From Cyanophora paradoxa CCMP329 (lineage: Eukaryota; Plantae; Glaucophyta), in assembly GCA_004431415.1 (NCBI GenBank), contig QPMI01000457.1, positions 124,001 through 188,000 of the forward strand: a stretch of 64,000 bases of DNA. The letters run 5' to 3'. A program made the position numbers and the translations under genes. Below the pieces are notes generated by a model. It was not told where the DNA came from and made no database searches. It was given only the letters and a program-made list of their open reading frames with translations. Below, in pieces: positions 10,001-41,300 of the stretch. The first letter of the stretch is position 1. Each line of letters starts with the position of its first letter.

Positions 10001-11191
10001 GGCCGTCTGGGTCGGCTACCAGCTGCACAGGAAGGGCGGGGCGGACCGCGGCGAGGGCGCCGAGGCCGCGTACGCGAGCGCGCGGGTCGTCCTCGCCGCC
10101 CTCGCCGACCTCCACACCAAGCTCGCCGACGGTGCGCCCCGCTGATCGATCGTGAATTCAAAGCGAATTCGAATTCGATCGGGGGCAGCGTGGTGGAGGA
10201 AGCACGGGAGCAAGCCGCGGCAGGACTTCCACCTGGGGCAGGCGCGGGAGGCGGACCCGGCGGCCTTCACCAACTTCCAGAAGATGAGCGACCGCTTCGA
10301 TGTCTACCGGGAGGCCCCCGCCGGGGCGCACGCCCTCCTCGAGGACCCCGCCGCCGTCGCCCGCGTGCGCCCGTCTGGCGCAGCCTCTCGCGTTAATTAA
10401 TCTGCGATTAATATCGGGGCGCCGGCGCCGCGGGCAGGTGTCGGCGCACCGCCCCAAGGCGGCGTTCTGCGGGGCGTGCAAGGCGGGCCCGCTGCAGATC
10501 AACGACCTCTACTCCTGTGCCGAGTGCCCCCCGCGGCCCGGAGTGTACCTCTGCACGAGGCGAGAGCTTCCCCGCCCTCCTTCAGCTCCCCCCCCCCTTC
10601 GCCCCCACCCCCCCCCCGTCGCCCCTTCCCCCCCCCCCCCCCCCTTCCGTTCCCCCTGTTGACGGTGCAGCAGCTGCTTTGGGGGCAAGCCGGACCACGC
10701 GGAGCACAAATTTGTGCGGGTGCGCGTCCCTCCCGCCCGCAACCGGCGCCTTCGCGCGCGTCCCGACGGCCTGGGGGCGGCAGGTCGCAGACGTGCCGCG
10801 GCAGGTGCCGCCCGCACCGAAGGAGGGCATGAAGGCGCGGCTGCTGCCCCTGCGCACACGCCCCTCCCCACACTCCCGTCGGCCCGGCGGGCCCTGACAT
10901 GCACGTGGGCCGGCGGCAGCTGTGCACGCGGTGCGAGGCGTGGTTCGACCCGGGGGCGGCGGCGGGCTGCGCCAGCCACTCGGCGTACTTCATGAACTCG
11001 CGGGGCTGGGTCTGCTGCACGTGCGCCAGCGCTATCTTCCTCTCAATATTTCCTTCCTTTACTGTATAATTTCACTATGCAGGAAGCAAGGGCGGGACGC
11101 GCCGGGGTGCCGGAAGGACAGCCACACGGACGCGGCGCGGAAGTGGCAGCAGGACCCGTCGTACGGCACCTACACCTACGTCCCCGCTTGA
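4048..11191 (+). CDS. Host DUF4062-NACHT(STAND NTPase)-TPR protein (NPHP3/TTC41-like) with C-terminal Cys-rich (ZZ-like) fingers; many introns
   Basis: DUF4062 motifs VRIFLSSTFR-DMQRERD and DLRWG..CLSELDRC..GQRYGW; Walker A GRSGLGKS (~6230-6255); Walker B LIVVDSLDQ (~6617-6645); TPR-like helices 8800-10100; CxxC motifs 10460-11020; stop at 11191 followed by AATAAA at 11201. Confidence 0.8.
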
Positions 11192-11327
11192 CGCGCTGCG
11201 AATAAAATTCCGTATCGGCCTTTATATTAGCATTTTGTCCGTCATGTGGTTACGTAGAAGCATGCGCAGTGCACGCGGTAAAATACGACACGATGCATTG
11301 GCCATGGCGACAGAGACAGAAATTCCG

Positions 11328-14300
11328 CTAGAAGCGCGAAGCGATATTAATATTGCTTCTTGGCTGTCTATCACGTATGCGCTTGCGAGTCCACCACCGC
11401 CGCATCAGAACGACGAGTCCCACTAACGACGGTAACAGAAGCAGGAGGCCGAAAGTGCCGAACATGAGTGCGCCCGGCAGTATTTCTCGGTGCAGTACGC
11501 GTAGCTGGCTGGAGGAATAGAAGATCCCAGAGCGATCCAATACAAGTGCGGAAAAAGACCCTAATACGAAAACGAATCCCCAGATAAACAGACCAACTGC
11601 ATCAAAGAAGGTTCTTTGATCGTTGTGCGCGTTATGCTGAAGTAGGATCCTCTGGGCGAGAGCGACTCTCATTTTGACAGGCAACAAATCCACGACAGAC
11701 ATTCTATTCGATTCAAAATCAAATCGAATACATTATTCAATCAATTGAATGGATTTACGAACCCCGCTAGAACAAGCAGCGCTAGCGCCCCGCACGCGAA
11801 GAACAAGCTTTGTCCGAACTTCGACTGAAATCGACAAGTCGTCCAGAACCATAACTTTGAGCTCGACGCCGACGTCGACGTATTCGTTTGCGAGAGCCTC
11901 TCGAGACTGGCATTGACCGCAGCATACGCAGCGGTTATGGCGGTTAAATTCGCTTTCGGGGACGCCGTTCGACTTATGTTCGCGAGCTCGGCTTGATATT
12001 GCTTAAGACCGTCGATGTACGCTGCTTGCGCGGCTTGGTTTCGCTTGATACCGTCAATGTAGGCAACAGCATCTGAAAAGCTCGAGTTTGGAGATGAATC
12101 CGCAACGCAGATCACCGGGCCGTAAAAAGCGTGAATGAAATGGTCTACGTCCAGATTGAGTGTGGTTGCGTTCAGGCTTACGGAGAGTATGTAATTCTCA
12201 TCCCCCGAGAACGGCTGACTCCAAGATGACAGGTGAATACCGATGTAGATACATACCCCGCCAAAGATGATGAAAAGCATAATTCGAAGAAAAAATGCCA
12301 CAATGCTAAACACTTTCCTTAGAGCTCGCCTTATCGCTTCACTAGCTGGCTGATTCTGTACGGGATGGTGAGCATATTTGCATGTGCAACATTTGAGGCT
12401 CTGGATCGGAATCGGCACTGGCGCTGCACCTGAGCCGGATGTTCTGTTCTGTGACAATAAAGAAATGAGCCGGCCGATCGCGACGTCGTGCACACAAGTA
12501 ACTGCGCTTGCCACGACTTGTCCAGCGCATTTGTCTAACGGAGCAATCGCCTTCAAATTAAATTATGAAGGTGATCGCGACTTGACTTTATAAAGTAAGC
12601 AAGCAATGGGGACACCGTCTCACACAATCGGAAATCCACGATAGGACTGTCGTAGTTCAGCGTTTCGATTCGGCGGAATTCTATATTCGAATCATCGAGG
12701 CCGTTCGGCGTCGATTGTCTCAATATGGAGACTTTCCCGTCTGTACTTCCGCAGCACAGTACGTGAAATCGCTTGTCTGCGCGAGTCTGGGCGCGCCGCT
12801 CGTGATGATCAGGAACAGAAGCTTTTGAATCACATGCAGATGTCAAACACAAAAGCTGCGCATACTTGAAGAAAAGCAGTGGAGAGCGTTGAGATGACGT
12901 TTGAATGCACCTCCATTGTCGAAATAAGCTTCTCATTTCTCCGGTTCCAGACGTACGCCTTGCCATCAGACGCCCCTGCGAAAACATGCGCCTGCGCGAA
13001 GTTTTATATTCTCCTCAGCCGTATCGCGATCGGCCTTCATCTTTTAATACTCGCACCTGCGACAAAGCTAAAGCAGTGCACCGGTTAAGCGCAGGAATCT
13101 GCATCTGATGGCGTTTCGTGGATTTTCCCGGTTTCTTCAAGTGCAGGCTCCTTGCATCGAAAATCAAGACCATGCCGTCGTCACATCCAACCGCAAATTG
13201 CGTCTCTCCCGCTTCCTGAGGCTAAGCATGTTAATGGTATTTGTTTTTGTCGATCGCAAATAATTATAAATATCACTGACGACTGCTGCAGCTGTCGCGG
13301 AGGACAGACAAAGTCGCTGTGCGACCACCCCCGACACGACATCAAATATTGCAATATCGCCATCCGACTGGAGGGCGATGGCGTGCATGCGCCTTTTCTA
13401 CAAATTTGCAGATCGAATGCAGATCGAACTTTAATAATGACAAACGACGTCCAGAATGCACACAGCACTTGCCTGCGGTTTGTCGTCCAGGAAAGCGATG
13501 TTTGAAATCTCGCTCGAAAAGATGGGGTAATCCGCGTCGCCTATCTCTGTCCCAGGAGCGCCGTCCACGTTGATGCATCGAACCGCGGCTCTTCCGGTGC
13601 TCGTCCCGCAAACCAGCATACCGCCAGACTGCCGGATCACGATCAATTATCTCCTGCTTGCAATTATCTCCACGTGCACACCCGTGCGCGCACCTCTGAC
13701 ACTGCGATGCAGCACATTTCACCGGATGTGCGCCCGATAAGAATTTCTGCCCACGCAATCGCACGCCCAGATCTCCAGGCGAAAACGCGATAGCCGTCGG
13801 CATCTCCCAAGACGACCGTTGAACCCGCCTGCAAAAGTTATGTATATTATACTAAGTTATAACTTATTACTTATGACGCATGCGGACACCCGTAAAAAAA
13901 CTCAGTCTTCACGGGACGGCCGAGCCAAAAATCCTCGGTAGTTTGATTGAGGTCAGAAAACTTACCTTAGGGTTGTGTCAACGCATATGAGAACACAGTG
14001 TGGCATAACGTAAATTACATCAGAATCACAAATTAAATTTTGACTTCAGATTTACAGTTATTTACCGCGCTTATTCTCGAAAATCTGCTGCGATAACGCC
14101 AGATCGACACATTACCCCAAGTGAAACTAAACTCAAAATGTCAGCACGTTAATTTAATTAAAAACCGCAATTTTAATTTTGCCCAGCCGCGCGCGGATCG
14201 AAATCGATCGATCGAAAACCGGTTCCAGTTTGGGTTTTAAAGAAATTTAATGCATGCCACATGGATTCGCAGTCGTAGTGCGCGCCTGTTGTAAAGGGGA

Positions 14301-17300
14301 GGACCCCCCCCCAAACCAGACCGCCCCCAAAGTCTGGTTTTACCTTCAGGGATCCACCCCTTCTAGCGTCATCAATTAACGATTTCCCTGAAAACAGTTA
14401 GACGTGCCAATTAGGCGTGTTGTTCGCTATATTACAGATTCATTGTTAGCTAGGCGTGTGCAAGTGTAGCTTTGGATCTGTTGCGGATATATTAAGTTAG
14501 GTTGCTTGAGGGCGCGATAGCTACTGGCCATGGGCCACACTTGCTTGTGCACGGTCTGGTTTGGCCTCAGGAGAGAGTGTCAGCTAGCTTGCGTAGCATT
14601 TGACTCACAAGAAACCTAGCTGATTTCCGAATCCATCGACGTCGACTGAAGCTAGCTTGCATAGCCTTTGGCTCACAAGAAACCTAGCTCTAGAAAATAC
14701 TCTCAGAAAGAGAAGTAAGCTTTCTTTTTCTGTAGACACTTAAGCGATCTTTGGCCTTCTTTATGAGTTCATCAACATTCTCGAGTTCTACTATTTCACC
14801 CTTGCACTCTTTCAGAAAGAGTTCAAAAAAGATCATATCTCTGTCTGAAACGTAATTCTTTTGGCCAGCCTGATAGAGCTTAATTTCCTGAACTTTCCTG
14901 GCATTTGTGAAAATGTAAACCTCTGCAGCCCGCCAGATACAATTGCTATATAACTGTGGCAAATATGGTTTGGTGCCTTTCATGCAGGCATTTTGGAGAA
15001 CATTTAGCGAGATATCGCCTTCAAACCTTGGTATGATGATAGTTCGCTCCCCGTTGTAGTTGTCCCAGAATCCAGGTCGGCCCTGTGGCCATGCTGTGTT
15101 AAAACCACGATGTTATGTAATTAACGTATACATTCCAGGCCTGCAAACCATGCCATCTCGCACGCAGTAGGTATTAGGAGGCAATGAGTTCAACAAAGTT
15201 TGGATGACAGGTTCAGGTGCTCCACCTGGGCAATGGTTACAGCGTGCACAAAATAGTGATAAGCGGTCAAACCTACGACAAAATAAATCGTCGTGTATGA
15301 GGACTTGTCCGGTGAGTACATGCAATATTTATACTGTTGATCCCTCTCGTCACGGAAATTGCCAACAGGAAACATCCTCTGGAACTCTGCAAATGACTTT
15401 CCACCTAGTCAACATCGTGATCAAGTTAGATGGAAGCACAGCACGTGGTTGCGAAAAGAACTACCATGGTACCTGCTAGAAAAGTTTTCATGCGTTGAAT
15501 AAATTGTACGTGGACTTGAGAACGACCTGGGTGGTCCAACTGTATACTGGTCGTTAATATGCACGCGCACATGGCAGGAATAGAGAATTAAAGTACCGTT
15601 CCAAATGCAAAATATCCGGGATGGGCGCAATTCACGTCAATATTCCGAAAGCAATCAAGAAAGTCCCGTTGTTGGCGTTCTTCGATTCGAAGTACAGTTG
15701 GGGCATGGCCCATAGCACGATAATCTTTGTCGCTGAATGCGCGTTCAAGCATCAACTTCATAAAATTCAGCGATTTCTTGTGGTACGTAGTAATGTATCC
15801 CTGTCGGGCGTTAATGGGGCCGGGGTGACGTCGGGCCACATGGATATAAATGAAACACGTTTAGGCAAACCTTGATGATGTACTGGTTCTCCTGGTCTGT
15901 ATAAAAAACCCGGAATTCAGCATACTTTACTTCCTCCTTGCATTGCCCGTTATTTTCGAATACTTTGCGAGTTGAGCGGAAGCATCGTCTCCAGACAGAT
16001 ATGTCGGCAGGCTCATCCCGCGTAAATTTCTCAAATGTGAAGAAGTGGCGTTTGCGTATGTTAGGATCATCCGAGCCATAGCCCTTAAGAGTAATGGTGT
16101 AAGGCATATATACTGTTGCAGGTTTGAGTTAGTGCACATACGCACACACATATATAAGATACCGAATTGGACACCTGTGCACGTGGGCGTCGATCGACGT
16201 CTAGCGTTTGCGAGTATGTGTGCACGTCGCCAGTGCCTGTGTAATGTATGTATATATCTGGTATACGTAGAACCAAAGCGATATCGTGAGCCACCATCAT
16301 GGCATCGGACGCACCGTATCGCAGGCGCTAGCTACTGGTACGCGGGCAGTAGCCTTGGTGGCCGGCGCCAGTGCTACTACCGAGAGCAGTCTCAGCGAGC
16401 TATGCGCGCTACTGCGGCTACTAGGCTAGCGCGGCACTACTAGGCTGCGGCACGCCCGCGCCTCGCGTGTACTACCGTAGTACGGTACTAGTTTACTCAG
16501 TGACCACGCTATCAAAGCCTATCATAGTATAGCCTGGTACTACGGTAGTAGCCTCAGTACGGTACTAGCCTGGTACCGGTATATAGCTACTAGGCTATCA
16601 TCAGCCTGACAGTAGCCTATCGGCGCGCGCGTCTCAGTCTATCATCGCATATCGCCGTCGATTCGCCGAGTCTACCGGGCTATCGCCGTACTACGGTAGT
16701 ATACTACTAGGCTAGCGCCATACAACCAAATCCGAGTCAAAATGTACGGCGAGTTCGAATTCTCGCCGCCGGACCGTCGCCGAGTCGGACCCGGGGCCTA
16801 GCCTAGGCCTACTGTAATTCGGGTAATATTTAAGGCGGCCCCGTGCCTAGCCTCGTGATAATTCGGTAATAACTACCGGTAGCCTCGTGGCACGTGCCCG
16901 GCGGCCCCGGCCACGGGTGCACAACCGTTGAACCGTTGAACTTTCGGAACTTCGCTGACGTACCGTCGGACCGTCCGACGGTCGGACTGAGCCTGACTCG
17001 CCGCGAGTCGGTGAGTCGGAGGCGCGCGTGGCCCGCGGACTGTAGCAGGGCATCGAATGCCCAGAGGTTGTTGAAAGAATATAAACCATATCAGGGCATC
17101 GAATGCCCAGAGGTTGTTGAAAGAATATCAGGGCATCGAATGCCCAGAGGTTGTTGAAAGAATATAAACCATATCAGGGGCATCGAATGCCTAGAATACT
17201 AAAGTTGCTTTTTATAACCTCTGGGCATTTGCAATTGCAATACCACAATCGCAACATTAATTTGTACAAAAGTTGATTTTAAACCCTTCCACAATCGCAA

Positions 17301-20300
17301 CATTAATTTGCACAAAAGTTGATTTTAAACCCTTGTCAATGCCTAGAATACTGAAGTTGATTTTTAAAACCTCTGGGCATGCGTAATATTACAACATTAC
17401 AATGTTTGCAATGTTTGCAATGTTGAAGATTTTGGACAGGAAGTTATAAAATTTATATAATAAATGGCGCCCGCAGACTATATAATGACTCTAATAATGG
17501 CGCCCCGGCGAGCGACTAAACAATTACATAATAAACCTTTAGCACTGAATTCCCCAACTTACGTCAATTCCCCAATTTACGTCAGTTCCCCAACTTACCG
17601 TACCGCAGCGGCACAGTTTGCAAACTGTTGATTGGCTAGATCGGCAAACCCTGAATTTGATTTTTGATTGGTCGCAACCGTTTCACTAAGCGATTCACGA
17701 AATATGTAACATGTATATGATATGTTTGGGGCCTGGCGATTCATGTTCAGGCCGGTACACGTACTAGGTTTTGATTGGTCGCAACCGTTTCACTAAGCGA
17801 TTCACGAAATATGTATATGATATGTTTGGGGCCTGGCGATTCATGTTCAGGTCGGTACCCGTACTAGGCTCGGCGAACACGAACCCTCACGATTCAAGTT
17901 CAAGCTGCGAAAAAACCAACTGGAAGAAAACAAAAAAACACGAAAAGTGAGTACAAAAACAACCAATCGCAAATGCCGGAGGTTTCACAGTCGCGGGCCA
18001 TGGGGCGCCGATTGCACTACTGCGCGGGCCTGCAAGGTAGAAGCCTAGATTGCATGGCTTAGAGGTTTCCTGCACTCTATCTAGCAGTCAGAGATTGTTG
18101 CGCTGAAATCCGAAATTAATTTCAGTCCCTCTTCTTGGAAGCGCATGCAATGGCCAGCACTGCAGCACTTAAGGCCGAACTTAGAAATTTAGCGACAGAA
18201 CTTTATGATCGTGGATATGTTCACGGGACATTTCGAAACAAACTGATGCGCCTGGCGGACGCTAGCAGCGGGACCTGGGGCCGAACGATTCGCAAATATA
18301 TAGCAACACTGCTGCGACTGCGGAGCACGATTCGCCCAGCACGCCGCTTATATGAAGGCCAGCTCGCAGGCCATTTTGGCGCAATTGCAGCAGCTCGCGC
18401 AAACGCGGTTCAGGCCGAGGAGGCGATACTGGAGGACGTACCTAATATATTCCAAGATGTTGAAGAAATTCCCGTGCCACGAGATCTGGATGGGGTGCTC
18501 TCTCACAGGCACCACCGCTATCCGAATTTACTATTCGATAAGCACGTATATGCAATCGAGCCCAGTTTCGATCCGGAGTCCGTAAAGAATTTAACGATTG
18601 ACATCCTCGGGCAGCTGGGCGTTGCGGAGATGATAGGGCGATTTGTGATAATCCGGTTCCGCTTTGACAATAATCACATGTATACGACCCAGCTAATTCA
18701 AATCAGACAGAACGGGTTGCAGACTTTGACTGAGAGTTTAGATGAGCGGATTGCGCAGTGGATGTCAGCGCAAATGTCATATCAGGAGGACGATATTTGG
18801 GTGGTAATATTGATCGAGGTGTTAATTGCAGACAACGCGGCTGGCGCCCTAGGCAATGTTCCGAAATTGCCATTTTATCATCGGACAGTCGATAAGCTAT
18901 ACTGCCCGATGTCCCCAGCGAATGACTGCGTGCTCGAATGCTTTGAGTACGTTAAATTAGATCCACGCGGACTGAGCCTGAAGACAGTAATCGAAAAGCT
19001 GGCGAAGGCACCCTATGCATCTATTCGAGAGCGGCTCGGACTGGGAAAGGGCATGATATCTCTTGATCGCAGCACAGTAGAAGCGATCTGCGGAATATAT
19101 TCGATAGATGCAACTGTGACGGAGTGGGCAAACACGAAATTCAAGGAGCTTTTTCGAACCCAGTTTGATTATTCGAAGCGTGCAATTCTCTGCAACATCG
19201 ATGGGCATTGCTACCTGATTAAAAAGGAGGCGACACTAGGTCTGGAGCGGTGCCCTTGCTGCGGAAAGATGTTTGATTTGGCAACGCATGTGGAGCAATG
19301 CACGTTCTGCAATAACTGCAAACGCGCGTACGACCCCAGAAAAGATCATTCATCAGAGTGCCAGGAGATGACGCGCCGTCAAAACGTGATCGGGCGGCAG
19401 ATCAAGCCCTGCAAACCGGAGACAGAATTTACAGCGTTGGACAGCGTTGTCTGCGCGGATTTTGAAACGTTTGCTGCCAACGGCAAGACGCACGTTCCAT
19501 ATGCTGTCAGCTATTGCATGATTGAAAAAGGGGAGGTCTCGCCATGCGAGCTAATTTATGGTGAGCAAACGTTGGACTTGTTCATGCGCTGGCTTGAGCG
19601 CCGCAGCGAGAAGACGACGTTGGTGTTCTACAATGGGTCTGGCTTTGACTATATATTTGTCTACAAATGGCTCGTGTTAAATCGACCGAATACAGCATTA
19701 AACGTTCTGCGGTCGAACGGCAAGATCAAGAATATGTCGTGGAAAACGGCTGCAGGCGGGCCTATAAGTACGTTTGATCCGTGCCTGCACATCCAGGCTT
19801 CGCTCAAACAGGCCTGCAAGGACTACGGCTGCACTAACGTAAAGGGAGATTTTGATCATAGCAAGATTAAAACGTGGGAGGACGTTGAGCGCTTTAAATC
19901 TGAATGGGAGCCGTACGTGGAAGACGACGTTAAGGCAATGACAGAGCTTTACATTAAATATTCGACAGCAGTCTTCGATCTGTACGGCTTAAACGTGAAC
20001 ACAACGCAAACAACCACAGCTTCGGCAATGGCGTTCCAGATTCATCGGCAGACGTTGATCAATCCAATTTCGCTACCGACCTACAAGGATGATCAGGTGC
20101 TGCGCCAGGCAATATATGGTGGACGGTGTCTCCCATTTAAACGCAAATTCGTCTCATCGGGCCCGGATGATTATTTAGTCGACCTGGATGTTGTAAGCTT
20201 GTATCCGACGGCTATGTACGAGAATTGGTTTCCAACTGGAAAGTACAAGCATATTACGTCGCCCGATGCGCTGGACAGATTCTGCAAGATATTACAATCG

Positions 20301-23300
20301 AATCAGCGTTCGTTGATGTTTATTGCGTGCGTGGACGTGACAATTCCGCAAAATCTGCTGCTCTCTCCGCTGCCACGGCACGAATCTAATCTAGGCTGGT
20401 CTAATCTCAAGCCAATTGAGCGCGGTTGGTATACGTCAGTCGATATTAATCGTGCAATTAAACTGGGATGCGAGGTGACGAAGGTGCGCGAGGTCTACCT
20501 GTTTGACGGTAAAGATCAGATGTTTAAGACCTACATGGAGCGGATGTACTGCCAGAAAGCTAGATCTCGCAAGGGAACAGCTCCGTATGCGACGTCAAAG
20601 ATTTACATGAATGGCCTTTACGGTAAATATTGCCAGCGGCCTGTGATCACAACCTCGGATCTGGTCACATCATACAAGCGATTTCGAGAAATTCAGCGAT
20701 CAGCGCAGATCACAGACATTTCGATCGAATCAGACACGCGGATGTTTGTCACGTACGAGATTGAGGAGTCCAAGCGTGATAGAGCTGTCACTAAACCGTG
20801 CTTTATTGGCGCATTTATTCTGTCATATTCGCGGGAGATCATGGACAGGTTTCTGATTGAAATAGGCGCATACTGGAGCATCGATGCAATGCCGTTTTAT
20901 ACTGATACGGACTCTTTGATTGTCCATCGAAAATACGCTGATCTGCTGCGGGCAAAAGGTTATATGAAGCCAGCATATGATATAGCGACGGCAACAGATG
21001 CGGACATTTGCAGGCAGGAACTAGGGAAACTTGACTGTGACATTAAAGGGCGGATTGTGGAAGCGTACTTCATTGGGCCGAAGCTTTATACGTGTTCATT
21101 TGTACGTGACAGCGACGCGCAGCTTGATCTGCATGTACGCGCAAAGGGGATTCCGCAATCGTGGATCCAGGAGCACTGGCTACCAGACGAACCAGAGGAG
21201 AGGAAAGGGGCCCTCGACCGCAGGATCGCTCTGGATGCTTACAGGTGCATGCTCGAGGATCCCACGTACCAACCCAAATGCACAATCGAATCAAAGCTGG
21301 CCCGTGTTTATAAACCGAACGGGCGGCAACGGGAGAGCGGAATCAGCTTTAGTTCCATGATCCAAATTCCGTTCGCTCGACAGCTGAACAAGTCGCAGTA
21401 TACAAAGCGCAAGATAATTTCGGACGAATACTATAGTAGCGTCCCCATGAGTACCGCGCAGGCGAGCCGAATTAAGCAAGCTTATTACGATCCGGAAACT
21501 GGCTTTCAGTCTGCGGCGAGGATAGCTAAGCGGCTCAATTTACCGCTATCAAGAGTGCAGGACGTACTTTCAAAATTGACGACTGCGCAGCGTTTTGCGA
21601 AACCTGTAAAGGAAAAGCCATCGACCAGCATAATTTACGGGGAGCCCGAAAAGTACTACGAAGTCGATCTGATTGATGTGACCCCGTACGCGAGAACTAA
21701 TCGAGGGATTACTTTTATTATGAACGGTATCGATGTGACGACGCGCAAAGCGTATAGCATCCCTATGAAGACGAAATCGGAAAGCACTCTGCTAGCCAGT
21801 TTGAAGAAATTGATTGATGCACTCCCCTCGAAGCCGGACGTCATTCAGACAGATCAGGAGTTCAAAGGAACCGCAGCAACAATGCTAGCGAGTATGGGCA
21901 TCAAGCATAATGCAGTGGAGGCGCATCGCCCGCAAGCAAACGGCAAAATAGAGAGATTTAATGGTACGCTTAAGCGCATCATTGCAAAGTACATGGATGC
22001 GTACGACACGGACAGATATATCGATAAGCTGCCTGCTTTCTTGCGCAATTATAATTCGTCAGAGCATAGGTCAATTGGTACGTCGCCGAACGCTGCAGCA
22101 GAAAATCCGAAGGAGACAATTGCACGCAACGACTACCAGAGAGAAGCGTACGAGCAACAGCACTATTTTGCCCAAGCGGAATTTAAGGTAGGCGATCGGG
22201 TGCGAGTGCAGCTAGAGCGGCAGCGTTTCGACAAGTCTTCAAAGCCGACGTATTCAAAAGAAATCTATACGATCACGGAGATAGGTGGCTTTGGACCGCT
22301 GCTCAAATTTACGCTTTCGGGCTACGACAAAGCGGTGACCTACCAGCGACTATTGAAAGTAGCGGCAGATTCAGAGGAACGTCGTGCGGGCAATGCAGCA
22401 CAGCGGGCACAGCAGCGCAGGAAGAAAGAGATTAATCTAATGCAAGAGAATCTAGACAAGAGTGATATAGAGAGAGCGCGCAAACTCGAGCGTTTGCAGA
22501 AGCAATTGTTGACTGCAGGTAAAGAGAAGCTGAACCCAGGAGGGGCAACACAGAGATGGTATTCGTCGTTCCAGAATAAAACTGCAGCGTACTCAGCCCC
22601 TGGCAATACGCGAACTCTCCGCCCACGCGCGTGAAAAAGAAAGTGAGCCATCTTGGCTTTCTCCTTCTTTCGCTCCCCTCTTTTTACTTATTGCCGGCCA
22701 TTAGAGAGCTATAACAATTGTTTGTTGGAGGGACTCTAGCAGTGCTAACTTTTCGTAGATTCGATTGCGATAGCGGCGATTGGCCTCCAGATGGCCCTCA
22801 CTGTTATTGCGTTGATATTTCAGACTGGCTTCGATGTGACGTCGCCGGTAATCAGGATCTTCATTGTACCTGCGCCGATGGCTCTCGGCTCGCTTGGCCT
22901 TCCGTGCCGCAGCGATTTCAGGGGTGACAACAATTGGCTTGCGGCCTGGGCGCTTTGGCGATGATTCGGCATCCATATTTGCGGGTTTCTCGTCACAAAC
23001 AAGGAGCGAAATAATTTTATGGCATCAATCGCAGAACGACCAACTGCGTTGGATTTCGAGAATTAAATCCGAGATATAATTAAAACAATGCCAGCAACGA
23101 TCCGATTCGGCAAGTATCGAGGGGAGACGCATCTGGAGGTTGTTTACAGGGATCCAAAATATGCAGAATGGTTAATTTCGTGGCCGCATTTGCGCCCATA
23201 CGATAAGCAAAAGCTTGAGCGTGCATTCGAAATGTGCCGCACAATAGAGGGCTCTGAGCTTAGGAAGATGATTGACTTCGCAAAGCAGCAGCGACGTCCT

Positions 23301-32300: not shown

Positions 32301-35300
32301 TAGAACCAGCAGGACCTATGTTTGAAGAAACATGGTTCTTCCACAATTCGCAGAATTACTTTGATAAAACCTTACTTGTTCGTGGAAATGCCTATGCAAG
32401 AAATTTCTATGCTATGAACCCCTCAAATAATGCGACCATCAGTCGATGTATTACAGAGGCAGATCTTTCCAGTCAACTCAATGCATATTTTAATGGGAAA
32501 ATTCAAGCAGGGAAGTATGTTTACACTACTCCCGTTTTAGATTACAATAATCTCTATGTGTTCAATCTAACTATCTATTTTACCAATGCCTTTGCTTCTC
32601 CTCCTGTTGTGACAGCAACAGTAAGGCATGAAGGACAAGATCCAAATTATCAATTAACTCCCGTCGTTTTTACTGTGAACCTGTTGAATGTTTATAGTAA
32701 CTATTTCACTTGCGAACTTTTCACTGATCCATATGCAATGCTTAATTCATCCAAAACTGTGACAATTCATTACATTGCTGTCGCAATTTAACTATCTCGT
32801 AATTATTAAGATGACCTCTCTATTAGAAATCCCAAACTATGAACTTGCAGCCAAATCACTTCATAGCCCCTCTCATGGAGTAGTTGATTCAACCCCTGGG
32901 TATATTTGCACTGAAACTTCAAATAATACCTCTTTCACAGAGAATAATATACTTAGAGTCAAAGAAATACGCTGTGACCGAAATGGAGGCAAGATAAGAA
33001 CCACAGGAATTATTATCTCGAATAAAAATCAGGTTCAAGCAGGTCAGGTAGTCCCCGATTCAGCAGTCTATGATAATGTGGGTGGATTTAGCACAGCACA
33101 GATAGTTACTTTCGATAACACAATCAATAATTCGGCTCTTGTAGTCAGAAGTGGAGGTGCCTATATTGGTGATGGGGCAATTGTGGTGGGTACTGTCACA
33201 GCAAATCAGTTGACTGTGAATGGGACAAGCGTTTTTACTCAGTTAATGACAATTAGTTCTGGTCTTTTAGGTAACATAATTTATGGGACTCTTCAGGCAT
33301 TTCTGAGAGTTCAAGCACCCGAAATTGGTAGTGGAACAGATTCCAACATGAGCTACAAACGAAATGGTAATGCAATTGTCACTCTTGAAAAAACGACGGT
33401 AGCAGAGATAGAGATAAACTCATTCACACTTTCCCCAACTTGCTATTTGAAAAGGACTTATTGCCCAAGATTTTGTGTCACAAAACTATTACCTAATCAG
33501 GCAGCATCATCCTCATCATGGTCATCTGGCGTCCGTATTACCTTCACAGTTCCTAATTTCGCTACTTATTATGTCAACAATGAAGGCAACTGGAATGATT
33601 CGTATATATTTACTGCACCTGTTGCAGGTGTTTACCGGGTTTTTTTCACAGCTCTCAGAATAGATACTCAGACTTCTTATGTGACTATCTTAAAGCTTTC
33701 AATAAATGGAATTGCATCCGATTACGAATTTCAATGTTCATTAACGGGACAAATGGCTATCACATACGAAACTTTACTTACTCTTAACATGGGGGACAAT
33801 GTTGGAGTATTAAACTCAACAGGTGTTACCATCACTATTAGCACACGCTGTTACTTGGGTGCTATCTCGTAAGTGCTATATAATATTGTCTGTGTAATAT
33901 AAAGAATGGCTACTCAAATAGCAGTCCCTGTTTTCTGTTACGCTGCACCGAAAATTCATCAACTCAACCACACTGTAACAGATGCAACTCCGGGTTTTAT
34001 TTGCACAGAAACAACAGGAGCAGATTCATTTTCGCAGAACTCTTTGATTCGATGCAAGGAAATCCGGTGTGATCGCAATGGGGGCAAAGTGAGAACCACA
34101 GGTCTCATCGTTTCGAACAAGAACCAAGTTCAATCAGGACAGATCGTTTCTGATTCCGCAATCTATGATGATGTGGGAGGGTTCACCACACCCAAGATTG
34201 TTACGTTTGATAACACAAGTAATAATTCTGCTCTTGTCGTGAAAAGTGGAGGTGCTTACATCGGAGATGGTGCGAGGATTGATGGAAACCTTACAGCTGA
34301 GCAACTCACAGTAACAGGAACGACTACTTTTAATAACTTAGTAACAGCTAATGGTGGTGTGTATGTCCCTGGTGCTCAGCAGTCTATTGTGACAGCAACT
34401 ACCAAAATTGTTACACCCGAAGTAGATACAGGTTCGAGCTCAAATCTTCTCTTGAAACGCAATAGTAATCTCATGGCGACACTGGAAGCCAATAGTCTCA
34501 CTCTAAATACAGGTTGTTACTTCAAGTACGATTTTCAACCTCGATTCTGCGCACAACTTGGTTACACACATGTTGCTTCAAGTGCTGCTCCTCTGATCAA
34601 CTGGACAACAGTTTTTATAGACAACAGAGGTGCCTTTAATACAGGCAATGGAAGATATACAGCTCCTGTTGCAGGACATTACAGATTAACTGTAAATTCT
34701 TCCTCAACATCTTCAACAGCTGTAAGTCTGACTTTGCAGGTAAACGATACTAACCCTGGTGGTCTGACCATCTTCACATCTGGAACTTCAACTACAATTG
34801 CAGCGAAACCTCTATATATCAACGTTATACTCAATCTTGCTGCCGGAGAATATGTCACAATTGTCACAGGAACAGCTGGTAGTTATGCAAGTCGAACAAC
34901 ATTTACAGCTGAACTTCTAAGTATCACATAAATTTTCTCTCTATAATGTAGGAATGTCGAATATCTACCAAGTGGTTCTCTCAGATACTGAGAAGTTGGG
35001 AATGGAATATTGTGCTGCTTCTGTTCAGGATTGGATTGATAATGTCGTTCATAACAGGGCAAGAATTGCAATTGATGAGATTGTTCAGAAAGAAATTCAA
35101 TCTTGCATCTCATCAGGAGTTCAAATACCAACCTCAAAGGAAGCCATTGTGTCACAGGCATTCCAAAGGGGAACTGTAAAGAAAGGCATCGAGTATAATA
35201 ATGTCACAGAAGAGCAGTGAAGCTATAGCTTGTCTGCAGCCTATTTTTTTCTCTCGCATTTCTATCAAATGACCGAGTACAATCGGGTTCAGCTACCTAT

Positions 35301-38300
35301 CTACTCACTGGGCTCCCCAGCCATCCATATGAGGCAGCATGAAGTTAGCGATGCTATTGCGGGATTAGAGTCCACTGAGCGTCCAAACTCAACTAATGCA
35401 TTTGATCAACGATCTGTGATTCGGTGTAAAGAATTGCGAGCAGATAAAAACTCTGGGGTTGTAAAAACAACGCGATTATTAGTCACTAATGCAAATTTTT
35501 CCCAGCCCATAACAGGGGGAGTTGATTCGTACAGTGTTGACCTCCGAAGCATAAACTATGATCAAAACACTGCTGCCCTCACTGTGCGCTCCGGGGGAGC
35601 AGCTATTACTGGAGCTTGCCGTGTTAGTGGAGGACTATCATCATCGATTGCCATCAATGATGTTCCAGACTTTTCATTAGAGAATGTCGAAAATCGTAAA
35701 CGAGTTCGAATGTACTTACCTTGCTGTGACCTCCCCTATGCACAAGCTCTAGTAGAAGTTGAGATAACCATAGCAAATTCAAGTACACCAAATGGTCTGG
35801 ATGGTGAGAGGCTGCTTTCAAACAGAGAAATACCGAAGGCGCTTCAATCACTCTGTCAGGATCAAAATGATCAGATAGGGCATGTGTATACGTTCTTTGT
35901 GCAAGGCCTTGGACACGCTGGACGTGGATACGTTGTTCGTAATATCAATTCAAGACATCTTTTTGATTTATATGCTACTGCTATAGGCAGATACTCTATC
36001 CTAATCATCGGCTATCGCTCCGATGTAGCTGCATCAGTGGCCACTAGAGGACTGAACCCTGATCCGGCACTGAATAATATGTATGAGGAAGGCAATCCGG
36101 AAAATCCTATACCTTAAGTGGAAAGTTTTATCTCCTGTTTTCTAAAATGGAAGCTGTTGAAAGAATTGTTGTTCCCTCTTTGACACTAGCAGCCCCAGCA
36201 AATCACGTCCTGCAGCATGCTGTCTCAGACGATGTCCCCGGCCTGCAATCAACTGAGCAGCAGCCAACTCTAAACACCTTCCGAGATAATCACATCATAC
36301 GTTTAGGAGAGGTTAGATGCGACAAAAATAATGGAGTGGTCAAAACAACAAATCTTGTCGTAACAAACGCAAACTTTAATGCGCATTATGGGGATCCTGA
36401 TAGCTATGATGATGCTAACAAGGTTCACACTTTTACCTATGAATCAAGATTAGGGGCTGTTACCTGCAGGTCCGGAGGTGCTTATATTGGAGATGGCCTG
36501 AGAGTGGGTGGAGCTGCTTGCGCCCCTATATTTGTAAATGATCAACCTAACCCTGAAAACACTAATGAAAGAATCAGAACGTATGTTCCCGGTATGAATT
36601 TGCCTTATATCATCAAAGTCTTCACGCTAAACATAAATGAGCAAACATCGATCGTAGATAACGTTCAGCCACTCGGAATCCATTTCAAGAGTGTTGTTGA
36701 TATTCCCCCGGATATCTACTTCCTTTGTAGGAGAAACGATGCTCTCCGGCCAAACATAGCTGTTTTAATTAATCCTATTGACAATTTTGGTGTCGCTTTC
36801 CATTCTACTCCAGTGGGGGTTGAAGATTACCAGTTTATTGTGAGGGCTACGCTTATGGGCGCCTACAAAATCATTCTATTTGCCGAAAGAACAGATGTGA
36901 TTGCAAATGGTGTCAAGTACGGGGAGACCTTCAATTCGAATCGTTATTTCCCGATTGGAGGGGCTGATCCCAACCCATAGAATCTTTGTTTTATATATAG
37001 CCCATACTAGATGGATTTGCTCCGTAAATGCATGGAGATGTTCCATCTCAACGTCACCAGCAAATTGAAATGCAGCTGCTGCGAGACAACTATTAACCTC
37101 GAAATATCTGACACTGAGGGGTCGCGCACCCCTGATACTCAGCTATCGCCTAATAACACACCCGGGACTTCAAGGTCCAATTCTCCTTTTACACGATCCG
37201 ACTCACCTGTACCATGGCTTGATTCTGATAACCGAAGATCGTCTTGGCCACCCCCAAATATCCCAAAGCCCCTGAAAAGAAAGAAGTCCCTGCTATCAAG
37301 TTTCAGAAAGGAGAAGCAACCAGCTGCAGATCAAGTGGAATGAGGCTGCGGCCTCTGAATCCGCACTATCAGCGCACTATCAGCGCACTATCAGCGCACT
37401 ATCAGCGCCAATCTTTTGTGTGTCACGTATCTCACCGTTTTCTCGCCACGTCACGTCACGTCACGGCGTCACGTCACGGCGTCCGCAAAGTTTTCTCGCG
37501 AACTTGACCCTCCGAATTAAAACAATTAAAACAAAAGAAAGGTGAGCTTCTGCAGCTGTTCAGCTGTGGTGCTCCAGCTGCATCAGCTCAAACCTGGAAA
37601 GCTCTGATTGCAGTGCTAGCTCTAGAATCGAAGAGATCCTGAGCAAGCACGAACTCCAGAAGTTGAGGCACAGACAAGCACAGGCAAGATACTCACAGAC
37701 ACCGCTAGGCAAAGAAACAAGGGTGCGCTCTGAGCAGAAAAGGAAGCAGAAGCTCTCACCTCAACGCCTAGCATCTAAAGCCATGTCTGATCTGTCAACA
37801 CCAAGAGACGGAATGCAAGTCGATTCCGTAGACCAACGAAACGCTGTTGCTGAGCGAGATCTACATAGCCTAAAGAGAAAGATCCAGCATCGCGAGAAAA
37901 AGGATCAAAAACGGCAAAAGCGACATGAATTCGGAGCTATGTGCAAGCAAATCACGGATCTAGCTTATCAGAAACTCCGAGGACTGGAGCAAATGAATCA
38001 GAGCATTACTGACATTATTGTTGCCTGCAAAGTACGTGCAATGTCTACCGATCCTAGGCCTGCTGCCTGGTAACGTTTCGTCAGGCCGCAATCGACAATC
38101 CGTTGTTTGACAGCACAAAGACTAAGAGCGTCCTTGATTCGCTGAAGACGAAACTGGAAGGATTTGACATTGACGAAGACGATGGGTTGGACAGCTGCAG
38201 TGATTCCGATGTCTAAAGTGGCAGCTGTCCACACTTAGCATAGGCTGTTCTCTTTATGTAGAAGTACACTTGCACACGCCTAGCTAACAATGAATCTGTA

Positions 38301-41300
38301 ATATAGCGAACAACACGTCTAATTGACACGTCTAACTGTTTTCAGGGAAATCGTTAATTGATGACGCTAGAAGGGGTGGATCCCTGAAGGTAAAACCAGA
38401 CTTTGGGGGCGGTCTGGTTTGGGGGGGGGTCCTCCCCTTTACAACACGCGCCAAATGCGTGCGGAGTCAACTGCGGACGCGATCGTAGTACTACGGTACG
38501 TGCACGTGCTCGCAAATGCAAATGATTGAGCCGATCGCGACGTCGCAATCGCGAGCCCGGGCCGCGACGTCGACTTTGACTAGGACTCTTTCAGTGAGCT
38601 GTCGGGCAACTTCTATAAAACAAATTAAATTAAAATCGAATCGATCCGATCGACGATCCGGTACCCCTCGGCCTTCGCCAGTACCAGACTACTACTACCA
38701 GTTCGATCCGATCGGACGTACCGGATTTTCCTTCACTCAGGTTGACGTGTCACAGTGTGTCACCGCGGGTACCGGTAGGCGGCGGTAGCGCCCGGCGCGC
38801 GGCCAAGCGCGCAGCGGCGCGCTGCGGGCCTGCGGCGCGCGCTGGCCGCGGGCCCGTGGCCGCCGCCACGCGGCGCCGTCGACGTCACGGCGTGGCGCGA
38901 GCCGCGCGACTGTCGCGTGAGTCGAGTTTTTCCCAGCAGTTTAAGCTGGCCAGTGGCGTGCATGGAAAGTGGCAGATAACGGAAGTAACGGAAAGTGGCG
39001 GACCCGAGATAATTATAACGGACGTTTCCGGAAAGTAACGGACAGCTTAAGTGGCGGATAGCGAAAAGTAACGGAAAGTAACCGAAACACACTGCAGTCC
39101 GACGGTCGACGTCTAGCTGCAGGCCCGCTGATCATGATTCGAATTCATGAGCAGCAGCAGCAGCGGTCGTTGCTGCAGTTGCGCTTATATTAGCAACCGC
39201 GTACATACTAGCGCTGCTGCGCATGCTTGTGCAGACGGAGCACTGCGGCGCATCAGCAGGTGAATTCGAAGTCAACGCAGCGATTGCGATCGCGAAAGCA
39301 GTGATCCTGATTTTGTCGAAGCCGCTGCTTATAAGCACCCGCTCCGGATCGTGAAGTGCCCGGCGGCCGCGAAGATTATTCGAATTCTTTTGTCCTGAAA
39401 AAGTCCGTCGTTCTGGCAAACTGCGCAAGATTCGAAATATATAATAGCTAATTGGAACAGTTCCGATCTATCGCTAGATCTTATAGCTCCGCTTCCGAAG
39501 CTCAAGATCTGAGAGTCTAGATCGAGGTCGGCGCGGCCGACTCGACGCGTATGGCGCTGACGTCAACGCTGCGCGTTTCTCGATTGAAGTTCAGCTGCAG
39601 ATCTAGATCTACGTATACATGCTTCGAATTCCAGATCGCGAAAAAATTCATTTCTGCATGTAAGTTTCTTTCGAATTCGCGTGCGATCGCTATAGCTATG
39701 TCCGACGGTCATGATATCGATCATCAGTTAATGGGGGGGTGCGGGGGGGCTTGCCCCCCTGCTTGTATCAGGAGCCGATGAAGTGCAAACGTAGGTGTCT
39801 TTAATTGTATTTTATCGATTGCATGCGCACGCTTGTAACGGCGAATAATGGGCGAGGCCGCGAAAGAACACATTGAACAGGACGTCCGCGCAAAAGAGAT
39901 CGATGTCCATGTGCTCGAGGGAACTTTGCGTCTTCTATATTAACCGGCCAGATCTTCAGTTTAACATCCGGATCCTTCGATAGAACAAACGCTTGACGCG
40001 ATCCAGCATGCAGCTGCGCATCTTATTTAAACCGCGCTTTTAAAAGAGCATTCTGATTTAAATTCATTAAATAATTTATAATTACGTCAACGTTCTACCT
40101 TACCTCGTTTTCGTTAGCGATCTCGAGAAGTTGAGCTCGATTAGGAGACAGTTTATGGTACTTTGTGGCAAACCCCTGAAAACATGCAGCCTCCGCGAAC
40201 AGAGCCATGTCAGACGTCGACTCCCTTGCCCATACACGACACGTTTGGTCTTCGGAAGCTGAAAGAAAGCTATTGCCATCCTGCAATAAAACGGTTTCAA
40301 TTCTACTAAAACATGAAAGGCATTATTGGGGAAGGGAAAATCACTTCCCCTGTCCCTGTCCCTCGGGCCCAACCCTACCCCAAATCCCATTTCCCCGACC
40401 TCCGCAAAACCCGGGCCGCGCGGTACATGCTGAAAGCCCATCCCCAGGGGACCCCGAAACCGTGTCTCCCGGTCCCGTCCGACCAAAGGGTGATCCAGGA
40501 ACAGGCACCAACACCCGGGACAAAAAGGGGTCCAGCGAGGCACATGGAGCAGATATACGGGCCGGACCAGTTCGAGGTCAATGCTTGCATTATGCCCGAC
40601 ATTCCGTACTGCAAGAGCGAGGCCGGGCGCGAGCGCGGTCGCGTAGGAGGACGCCGCGCGTGCTAGCCAATCGCATTGGAGAGTGCGAACTTACCCTGCG
40701 GAAAGTCTTTTTGCGGTACCCGCACGATCTCCTGCGTTCGCTGCAATGAGCCTCCCACGCTCCGGCCGCCCGAGCGGCAGCGGCGGCGCGAAGCCACCGC
40801 CGGGCATCGCCATCGGAGTCGATATCGAGCCGGCCAGCAAGCCCTGCAGTCAGCCAGGCTGCGGCGGATCTAGGCAGAAGTACGGCGGCAAGTGCCTGCA
40901 CTGCGGCCAGCACTTCTGCACGAGGGACGCGCTTTACAGTCATGTGCTGCGATGTAGACATCCGGCGGCAAGCAGCGCAGCCGTGAAAACCCGGGCAGCT
41001 GGCGCCCATGGCCACGCGTTCAGCGAGCGGCCTGAGTGCGGGGACTGTCAGCAGAAGAGCAAAGCCACCGGCAGCAAAGACGTGTGGGGCTGTGACCTCT
41101 GCGCTGCCCACTTCGTGCGCTTCGGCCCGGCGAAGGTGGTGGCACACCACGCAACTGCATCCTGTGAAAAGAACCGCTTACGTGGTACGCGGTCATTATG
41201 CTTTCGAAGCGTTCGAAACTTACCTTTTCGCTACGTGTATACGCTGTCGCAGATGAGCCGGAGCTGCAGAGCATCGCTGCGCGCGCGGAAGCCGCGCGCG

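What the first reader, a model, noticed from the sequence alone, without database searches (positions are those of the whole stretch)
32811..36980. Modular four-gene receptor-binding array: constant N-terminal anchor, swappable tips
Seen: four tandem genes share a ~110-aa module (P....A...H...H.V.D..PG...TE.....F.....R..E.R.D.N.G...TT....N.N...A...RSGGA.I). A and B end in divergent C1q-like heads; C and D end in a different shared domain. I do not recognise the N-module. Inference: a novel capsid-attachment domain that displays a repertoire of adhesins, for host range or for attachment to a helper giant virus, diversified by tip exchange.
Basis: partly seen in the sequence, partly recalled or inferred. 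Interest (0 to 1): 0.72.

Follow-up and report, generated by a model that had tools for sequence, protein, structure and literature searches.

The report
Swappable-tip spike genes in Polinton-like virus
A virus built into the genome of a microbial eukaryote carries four neighbouring genes that share an uncatalogued front end but differ in their tips; relatives show nearly the same front end joined to unrelated phage-like tips, so these likely are particle spikes whose binding ends get exchanged, a design already known from phages and virophages.

Summary
Four genes (A-D) in a 24.2-kb integrated Polinton-like virus share a ~125-aa N-module (37-63% identical) that matched no catalogued family. 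A and B end in C1q-like heads; C and D share a different, likely beta-sandwich tip. Homologs are rare (7 of 1.84 billion representatives) but informative: Cyanophora paradoxa proteins with 91-94% identical modules carry unrelated tips (C1q versus a phage tailspike C-terminal domain), switching about 10 residues after the GGA motif. Against the broad reading: D's tip is conserved with its module (56-62% in orthologs), and A versus B may be plain divergence. Capsid attachment, trimer formation and ligand were not shown; both folds were low confidence. The design is known (zamilon Zav_1/19/20; phage fibres); the module family and the fixed exchange point appear new. The scan had not noted this on other DNA. 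Best reading: likely virion spikes with a shared anchor/trimer base and partly exchangeable, phage-derived tips (0.65).

The parts
14287..38446 (.). Integrated Polinton-like virus, 24,160 bp, 46% GC in 60-78% GC flanks; ends TG...CA
14287..14468 (+). Left terminal inverted repeat (~182 bp, 98% complementary to the right one); 6-bp target-site duplication at 14281-14286
38265..38446 (-). Right terminal inverted repeat; same 6-bp duplication at 38447-38452
18150..22634 (+). Protein-primed family B polymerase fused in one ORF to an rve integrase (1494 aa)
   Evidence: Pfam DNA_pol_B_2 E 5e-50, rve_3 E 1.3e-7
23974..24717 (-). A32-like packaging ATPase
   Evidence: Pfam Pox_A32 E 2.4e-9
24780..26167 (-). 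Likely major capsid gene, split by a frame break near 25.8 kb (identity inferred from position and size; no library match)
26243..27199 (-). Penton candidate 1 (recalled motif and size only; not confirmed)
27227..28117 (+). Penton candidate 2 (recalled motif and size only; not confirmed)
28109..29593 (-). Patatin-like lipase with a C-terminal extension
   Evidence: Pfam Patatin E 2.7e-25
29618..32791 (+). 1057-aa fibre-like protein: phage tail repeats and weak H-type lectin tip; lacks the N-module
32811..33872 (+). Gene A: N-module (about 32811-33194), short beta-rich shaft, divergent C1q-like head; identity to B drops at residue 139-140 (about 33229)
33906..34931 (+). Gene B: N-module (about 33906-34289), shaft, C1q head
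34954..35220 (+). 88-aa gene; homologs in two phages lie directly behind C1q-tipped genes; likely partner or assembly helper of the C1q tip
35269..36117 (+). Gene C: N-module (about 35269-35634) and tip of the C/D type
36147..36980 (+). Gene D: N-module (about 36147-36515) and conserved tip, predicted small beta-sandwich (low confidence)

Best explanation
A-D are four paralogous genes of an integrated Polinton-like virus that share an uncatalogued ~125-aa N-module and likely encode short spikes on the virus particle, with the module predicted to act as the common anchor or trimer base and the tips predicted to bind sugars or proteins on a target surface. Shown: shared module, two tip classes in the window, a third tip class in relatives, phage relatives of the tips, and a fixed switch point 10-25 residues behind the GGA motif. 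Inferred: new tips come in by recombination in or just behind the conserved module, some picked up from tailed phages (C1q head with its 88-aa partner gene; tailspike C-terminal domain), and many divergent copies in one host genome offer donors. The D-type spike is likely a constant component; the C1q-type slots are the variable ones. Most likely target: the host cell surface (inferred from phage-like fibres and a lipase in other PLVs).
For: Context: array sits behind ATPase, capsid candidates, lipase and a 1057-aa fibre gene in a TIR- and TSD-bounded element. Exchange: P0006 vs P0014 94% identical before and unrelated after (z -1.0); P0006 vs P0007 91%, z -0.6; P0007 vs P0014 88% then 36%; P0004 vs P0005 77% then 29%; change points at residues 125-128, 0 of 200 permutations reach them in each of these 4 pairs. 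A vs B switch at 139 (64% to 27%), the same place where 6-7 contigs per run leave A in 3 of 4 runs shown (33229 = residue 140). Phage links: C1q tips hit phrog_15750 in 6 of 6 C1q-type proteins scanned, P0006 hits phrog_34132 at E 5.7e-44; that tip is the C-terminus of an Aeromonas phage ORF with a Pfam tail-fibre N-domain and of a Vibrio phage ORF with a weak beta-helix hit; the 88-aa gene follows a C1q-tipped gene in both distinct phages found. D tip: several fibre-tip and H-type-lectin chains among the top rows, best Z 5.8 (rmsd 2.2, 67 aligned), weak. No hydrophobic stretch that looks like a membrane anchor. Precedent: zamilon Zav_1/19/20; fibre protein in Gezel-14T particles; variable C1q heads behind conserved N-ends in marine phages.
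Against: No call shows that any of these proteins is in a virion or touches a capsid protein. Both AlphaFold models are poor (pLDDT 43.9 and 40.1) and Z 5.8 is within the range of common arrangements. D's tip is not variable: 56-62% in D/P0001/P0002 with no significant change point (19-112 of 200 permutations). A vs B can be explained by faster divergence of one tip family; four-fold sites are saturated on both sides (13 of 35, 10 of 28), so no recent conversion is seen inside the window. The clearest swaps rest on automatic gene models of Cyanophora whose DNA I could not read; a wrong splice could join parts (three separate 400-aa models agree). One joint across B's head has only 24 letters on its short side. 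Capsid and penton identities are not confirmed by any library.
Confidence: 0.65

Rival explanations
1. The paralogs assemble into one mixed complex (a heterotrimer, or a branched spike in which the constant D-type protein holds the others), so the module is a subunit-subunit interface and not a capsid anchor used four times.
For: Three consecutive virophage DSLV2 tail genes were reported to form a heterotrimer (PMC12724248, Results read). D is the conserved member.
Against: A heterotrimer needs matching tips; here tips fall in two unrelated classes and lengths differ (277-353 aa). C1q heads normally trimerise with C1q heads (own knowledge); an A/B mixed trimer remains possible.
Confidence: 0.18
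2. The genes are spikes, but the window's array arose by old duplication and fast tip divergence only; there is no ongoing exchange in this element family.
For: A and B keep the same tip family; C and D keep theirs; synonymous sites saturated; N-module tree groups A+B and C+D like their tips (supports 85/84 and 88/83, not starred).
Against: Cannot explain 91-94% identical modules on unrelated tips in Cyanophora; contigs of organism A leave gene A at one place and replace parts of B's head between matching flanks.
Confidence: 0.2
3. The proteins are not particle parts but act inside the infected cell, for example as decoys or binders against a giant virus or host proteins.
For: No virion data; module has no match to any structural family.
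Against: Position in the structural block; tips related to phage tail-fibre ends, with a phage partner gene kept in place.
Confidence: 0.1

Closest known systems
Zamilon virophage Zav_19 / Zav_20 / Zav_1 (10.1101/2023.01.23.525297; abstract, sections 8 and 9 and passages read)
   Same: Several virion fibre genes in one small genome share an N-terminal domain (51-53% over 52 aa) and carry unrelated heads; proposed to anchor on capsomers and bind different glycans.
   Different: Their domain is a 52-aa intertwined beta-prism; the module here is ~125 aa and its profile did not hit any PDB chain of that kind (the paper gives 7QRJ, whose presence in the copy I did not check). Exchange between near-identical anchors was not described in what I read; the element here is an integrating pPolB-rve PLV.
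DSLV2 virophage tripartite tail proteins (PMC12724248; abstract and Results read)
   Same: Consecutive paralogous tail genes next to capsid genes, conserved base, variable binding part, phage-related.
   Different: Those carry the phage collar domain PF07484 and a gp37-like needle and form a heterotrimer; A-D have no PF07484 hit and two unrelated tip classes.
Phage-like fibres of Polinton-like viruses (PMC12220804 section 13 part 1 read; Gezel-14T Ltf, 10.1101/2022.07.28.501842 passages)
   Same: PLVs carry phage-derived fibre domains; a PTR-PTR-H_lectin fibre in one Cyanophora PLV and patatin fusions in glaucophyte PLVs are reported, matching the neighbours of this array.
   Different: Those are mostly single long fibres; C1q occurs 0 times in the main text and in the 2 supplementary files held; no shared short N-module array is described in what I read.
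C1q-tipped receptor-binding genes of aquatic phages (PMC3909814, passages read)
   Same: Conserved N-end, hypervariable C1q head, next to tail-fibre genes; same head family and same small downstream gene.
   Different: The N-module is not found in phages; receptor role there is itself inferred from position and variability.

Membership tests
Polinton-like virus / Maverick-Polinton element | Terminal inverted repeats and target-site duplication | tested here: met
   ~182-bp TIRs, 6-bp duplication
Polinton-like virus / Maverick-Polinton element | pPolB, integrase and A32-like ATPase | tested here: met
Polinton-like virus / Maverick-Polinton element | Double jelly-roll major capsid and single jelly-roll penton | tested here: inconclusive
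   Candidates present but no Pfam, PHROG or PDB match; not folded
C1q globular domain (PF00386) | Pfam gathering score 23.7 | tested here: met
   B 26.2, P0004 45.2, P0005 28.2, P0014 23.8 pass; A 18.5 and P0007 20.5 fall below
Trimeric viral fibre / receptor-binding protein | C-terminal head of a fibre-tip family behind a beta-rich shaft | tested here: met
   A, B and relatives; for C/D only weak fold hits
Trimeric viral fibre / receptor-binding protein | Trimer formation | tested here: inconclusive
   One complex job was run; see Tried and rejected
Trimeric viral fibre / receptor-binding protein | Presence in the virion, N-end bound to capsid, ligand binding by the head | not testable with these tools
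   Needs particles, proteomics, binding assays
Zamilon Zav_19-type beta-prism N-domain | Sequence or fold match of the N-domain | tested here: inconclusive
   No profile hit in PDB; module model too poor to compare folds
DSLV2-type tail proteins | Phage tail collar domain PF07484 | tested here: not met
   No such hit at E 0.1 in A-D
H-type lectin / gp53-like fibre tip (for C/D tip) | Small beta-sandwich of that topology | tested here: inconclusive
   Z 4.5-5.8 rows on a low-confidence model; no profile match to the window's own lectin-like tip

The most novel reading that the evidence does not exclude
The many integrated copies of this virus in one host genome form a standing library of binding tips: copies recombine at a fixed junction behind a new capsid-anchor domain, so that reactivated particles display reshuffled, phage-derived heads and track changing host, prey or giant-virus surfaces, a cassette-type diversification system in an endogenous eukaryotic DNA virus.
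Probability: 0.15. Interest if true: 0.8.

Novelty: new variant of a known kind. Interest (0 to 1): 0.5.

Why it matters
How Polinton-like viruses, among the commonest integrated viruses of protists, choose their host or helper virus is largely open. This array gives a compact handle: one uncatalogued shared domain that likely marks spike genes, natural tip variants on almost the same base, and a traceable flow of tip modules from bacterial phages into a eukaryotic virus. It makes the anchor and the target directly testable with four small proteins. The general design is already known from phages and zamilon, which limits the surprise.

Tried and rejected
Complex job, three copies of D: no answer, score 0.00, alignment not used; not evidence either way. 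Co-folding with pentons was not run (one job only). AlphaFold of the module alone (pLDDT 40, pTM 0.17): not searched further. Foldseek against viral models: TM below 0.3 on a poor model; not counted. Related loci: none confirmed in 6 scans of viral contigs, 2 of metagenome contigs (34, 109), 1 of genome contigs (111), so I have no neighbourhood for any homolog. C/D tip on longer proteins: 0 of 4154 candidates (weak, 285 aa and up only). Module against PDB, NCBIfam, phages, Atlas: only chance-level rows. C/D tip as a degenerate C1q or as a relative of the long fibre's tip: no profile match. Two penton candidates are not detectably similar by BLASTP. No whole genome is held. No RNA holder listed; expression was not examined. 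Summed contig depth is much higher over the A and B modules and the small gene than over their heads, but the tool states that depth cannot rank parts of genes, so it is not used. C1q tip tree had no supported branch. Earlier-findings look-ups gave one unrelated note and two blanks.
Full report
Setting. The array lies in a low-GC island in a GC-rich eukaryotic sequence. The island holds a 24,160-bp element at 14287-38446 with ~182-bp terminal inverted repeats, TG...CA ends and a 6-bp target-site duplication. It encodes a pPolB fused to an rve integrase, an A32 ATPase, a patatin lipase and a 1057-aa protein with phage tail repeats and a weak H-type lectin tip. Capsid and penton candidates are named from position, size and a recalled motif; no library confirmed them. 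It works like, and by most tested features is, an integrated Polinton-like virus. The host was not identified; flanking WD40 and TPR fragments and the named relatives point to a protist (inference).

Observation. A-D are intact ORFs separated by 22-48 bp gaps. The N-module is real: 6 of 6 pairs at z 25-72, 37-63% identity, and a profile finds it only in these four places of the window. A and B share a C1q-like C-part, C and D a different one; cross pairs are at chance level. An 88-aa gene lies between B and C.

Is the module known? No Pfam, PHROG, NCBIfam or PDB family matched it beyond chance level, nor did 50,697 phage records or the Atlas (best 0.85, lead only). A profile search of 1.84 billion representatives gave 7 proteins at E up to 0.001; word-based searches gave 2 of 7997 and 4 of 7996 candidates. 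Five distinct homologs come from unnamed short contigs (P0001-P0005); 16 are Cyanophora paradoxa gene models in three clusters: 5 full-length, 10 ending near the junction at 93-140 aa, 1 tip only. Fourteen columns are invariant over 14 sequences. The family is rare and so far seen only in this element, in Cyanophora and in unplaced contigs.

Tips. Nine full-length homologs carry three tip classes: D-type (P0001, P0002), C1q (P0004, P0005, P0007, P0014) and a domain found at the C-terminus of phage tail proteins (P0006, P0011, P0012; phrog_34132, E 5.7e-44; 37-43% identity to 3 phage records; the Aeromonas ORF starts with a Pfam tail-fibre domain). Its DYAE motif recalls self-cleaving tailspike chaperones (recalled; no Pfam hit). 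The 88-aa protein matches 3 phage records (2 distinct phages, 38-52%), in both directly behind a C1q-tipped gene, so head and partner gene likely came from phages as a unit. D's tip is predicted as a small beta-sandwich at pLDDT 50-68; top structural rows include a cyanophage tailspike, discoidin, a phage gp53 tip and pyocin fibres at Z 4.7-5.8, suggestive only.

Exchange. Of 13 pairs tested for a change point, the four pairs with close modules and different tips switch at residues 125-128, right after the GGA motif and first shaft strand (0 of 200 permutations each): 94 to 21%, 91 to 22%, 88 to 35%, 77 to 29%. A versus B switch at 139, C versus D at 157 (44 to 21%). The three D-type ortholog pairs show no significant switch; their tips are 56-62% identical. 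P0006 versus P0011 are 94-99% alike throughout. So exchange is shown for the family, most clearly in Cyanophora models, but not for the D-type gene. In four DNA runs of organism A, laid at 80% likeness, many divergent contigs cover the element; 6-7 contigs per run leave gene A behind 33229 (residue 140) in 3 of 4 runs among the rows shown, and joints replace parts of B between matching flanks (34465 to 34931 in 4 of 4 runs, short side 24 letters; 34687 to 34878 in 4 of 4, up to 96 letters). The letters between are not given, so these show variable heads, not necessarily swapped ones. Of the 40 best-supported of 1,882 differences, 39 are in genes and 25 are silent, in line with purifying selection on the element; this is not a random sample.

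Mechanism. Most likely each gene makes a short trimeric spike: module as shared base, a few beta repeats as shaft, a binding head. Trimer, capsid contact and ligand are inferred from tip families and precedent, not shown. Recombination in the conserved module or first shaft repeat would put a new head on the same base. The lipase and phage-like fibres favour direct host entry, as argued for other PLVs (PMC12220804; Gezel-14T); binding to a giant virus (zamilon proposal; a collagen-like gene deletion linked to helper range in Guarani, PMC7242381 section 7) or to prey bacteria (DSLV2) is not excluded.

Known versus new. Shared N-domain with unrelated heads is described for zamilon, consecutive tail paralogs for DSLV2, variable C1q heads for marine phages, phage-like fibres for PLVs including a PTR-PTR-H_lectin protein in a Cyanophora PLV. 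I found no description of this module or of C1q-tipped arrays in PLVs in five literature searches; subscription papers, bioRxiv supplements and supplementary files of PMC12220804 beyond the 2 held as text were not visible and may list it. Other papers seen: PMC10120064, PMC8502044 and 10.64898/2026.06.19.733378 (passages only), PMC12721341 (abstract). An earlier scan note named Bdellovibrio mosaic fibres as an analogue for unrelated genes; I did not read that paper.

Verdict. Real feature, new domain family, known design: new variant of a known kind, interest 0.5.

Noticed in passing
window 18150-22634: pPolB and rve integrase are fused in one 1494-aa ORF. A helicase-pPolB fusion is in print (PMC12721341, abstract); I did not search for this fusion specifically.
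   Followed up: partly
window about 25790-25811: The likely major capsid gene is split by a frame break; contigs of other copies differ by a one-letter indel there. Real decay or assembly error not resolved.
   Followed up: partly
window 29618-32791: The long fibre also varies among copies: joints skip or repeat parts at 30422-31412 and in the 36-bp repeats at 31931-32158, and loose ends lie in its tip near 32762. Its domain order equals the PTR-PTR-H_lectin protein reported for one Cyanophora PLV.
   Followed up: partly
window 17043-17868: Non-coding block of several short direct and inverted repeat families upstream of the polymerase gene; possibly an origin or promoter region.
   Followed up: no
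P0008-P0021 (Cyanophora gene models): 10 of 16 models hold only the N-module and end at 93-140 aa, near the exchange junction: decayed copies, assembly errors or stand-alone modules.
   Followed up: no
window 11000-14280 and 38450-44000: The element sits in DNA of about 50-60% GC, lower than the outer flanks, with WD40-like fragments on the right and two membrane-protein-like ORFs at 11328-12556.
   Followed up: partly
window 23088-23384: 98-aa ORF with an ExoX-like C-terminal motif (Pfam PF20600, E 4.8e-6, just under cut-off).
   Followed up: no
window 37547-38294: This stretch before the right TIR is covered by one long unbranched contig in each run (table 8), suggesting that it is specific to this copy.
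   Followed up: no
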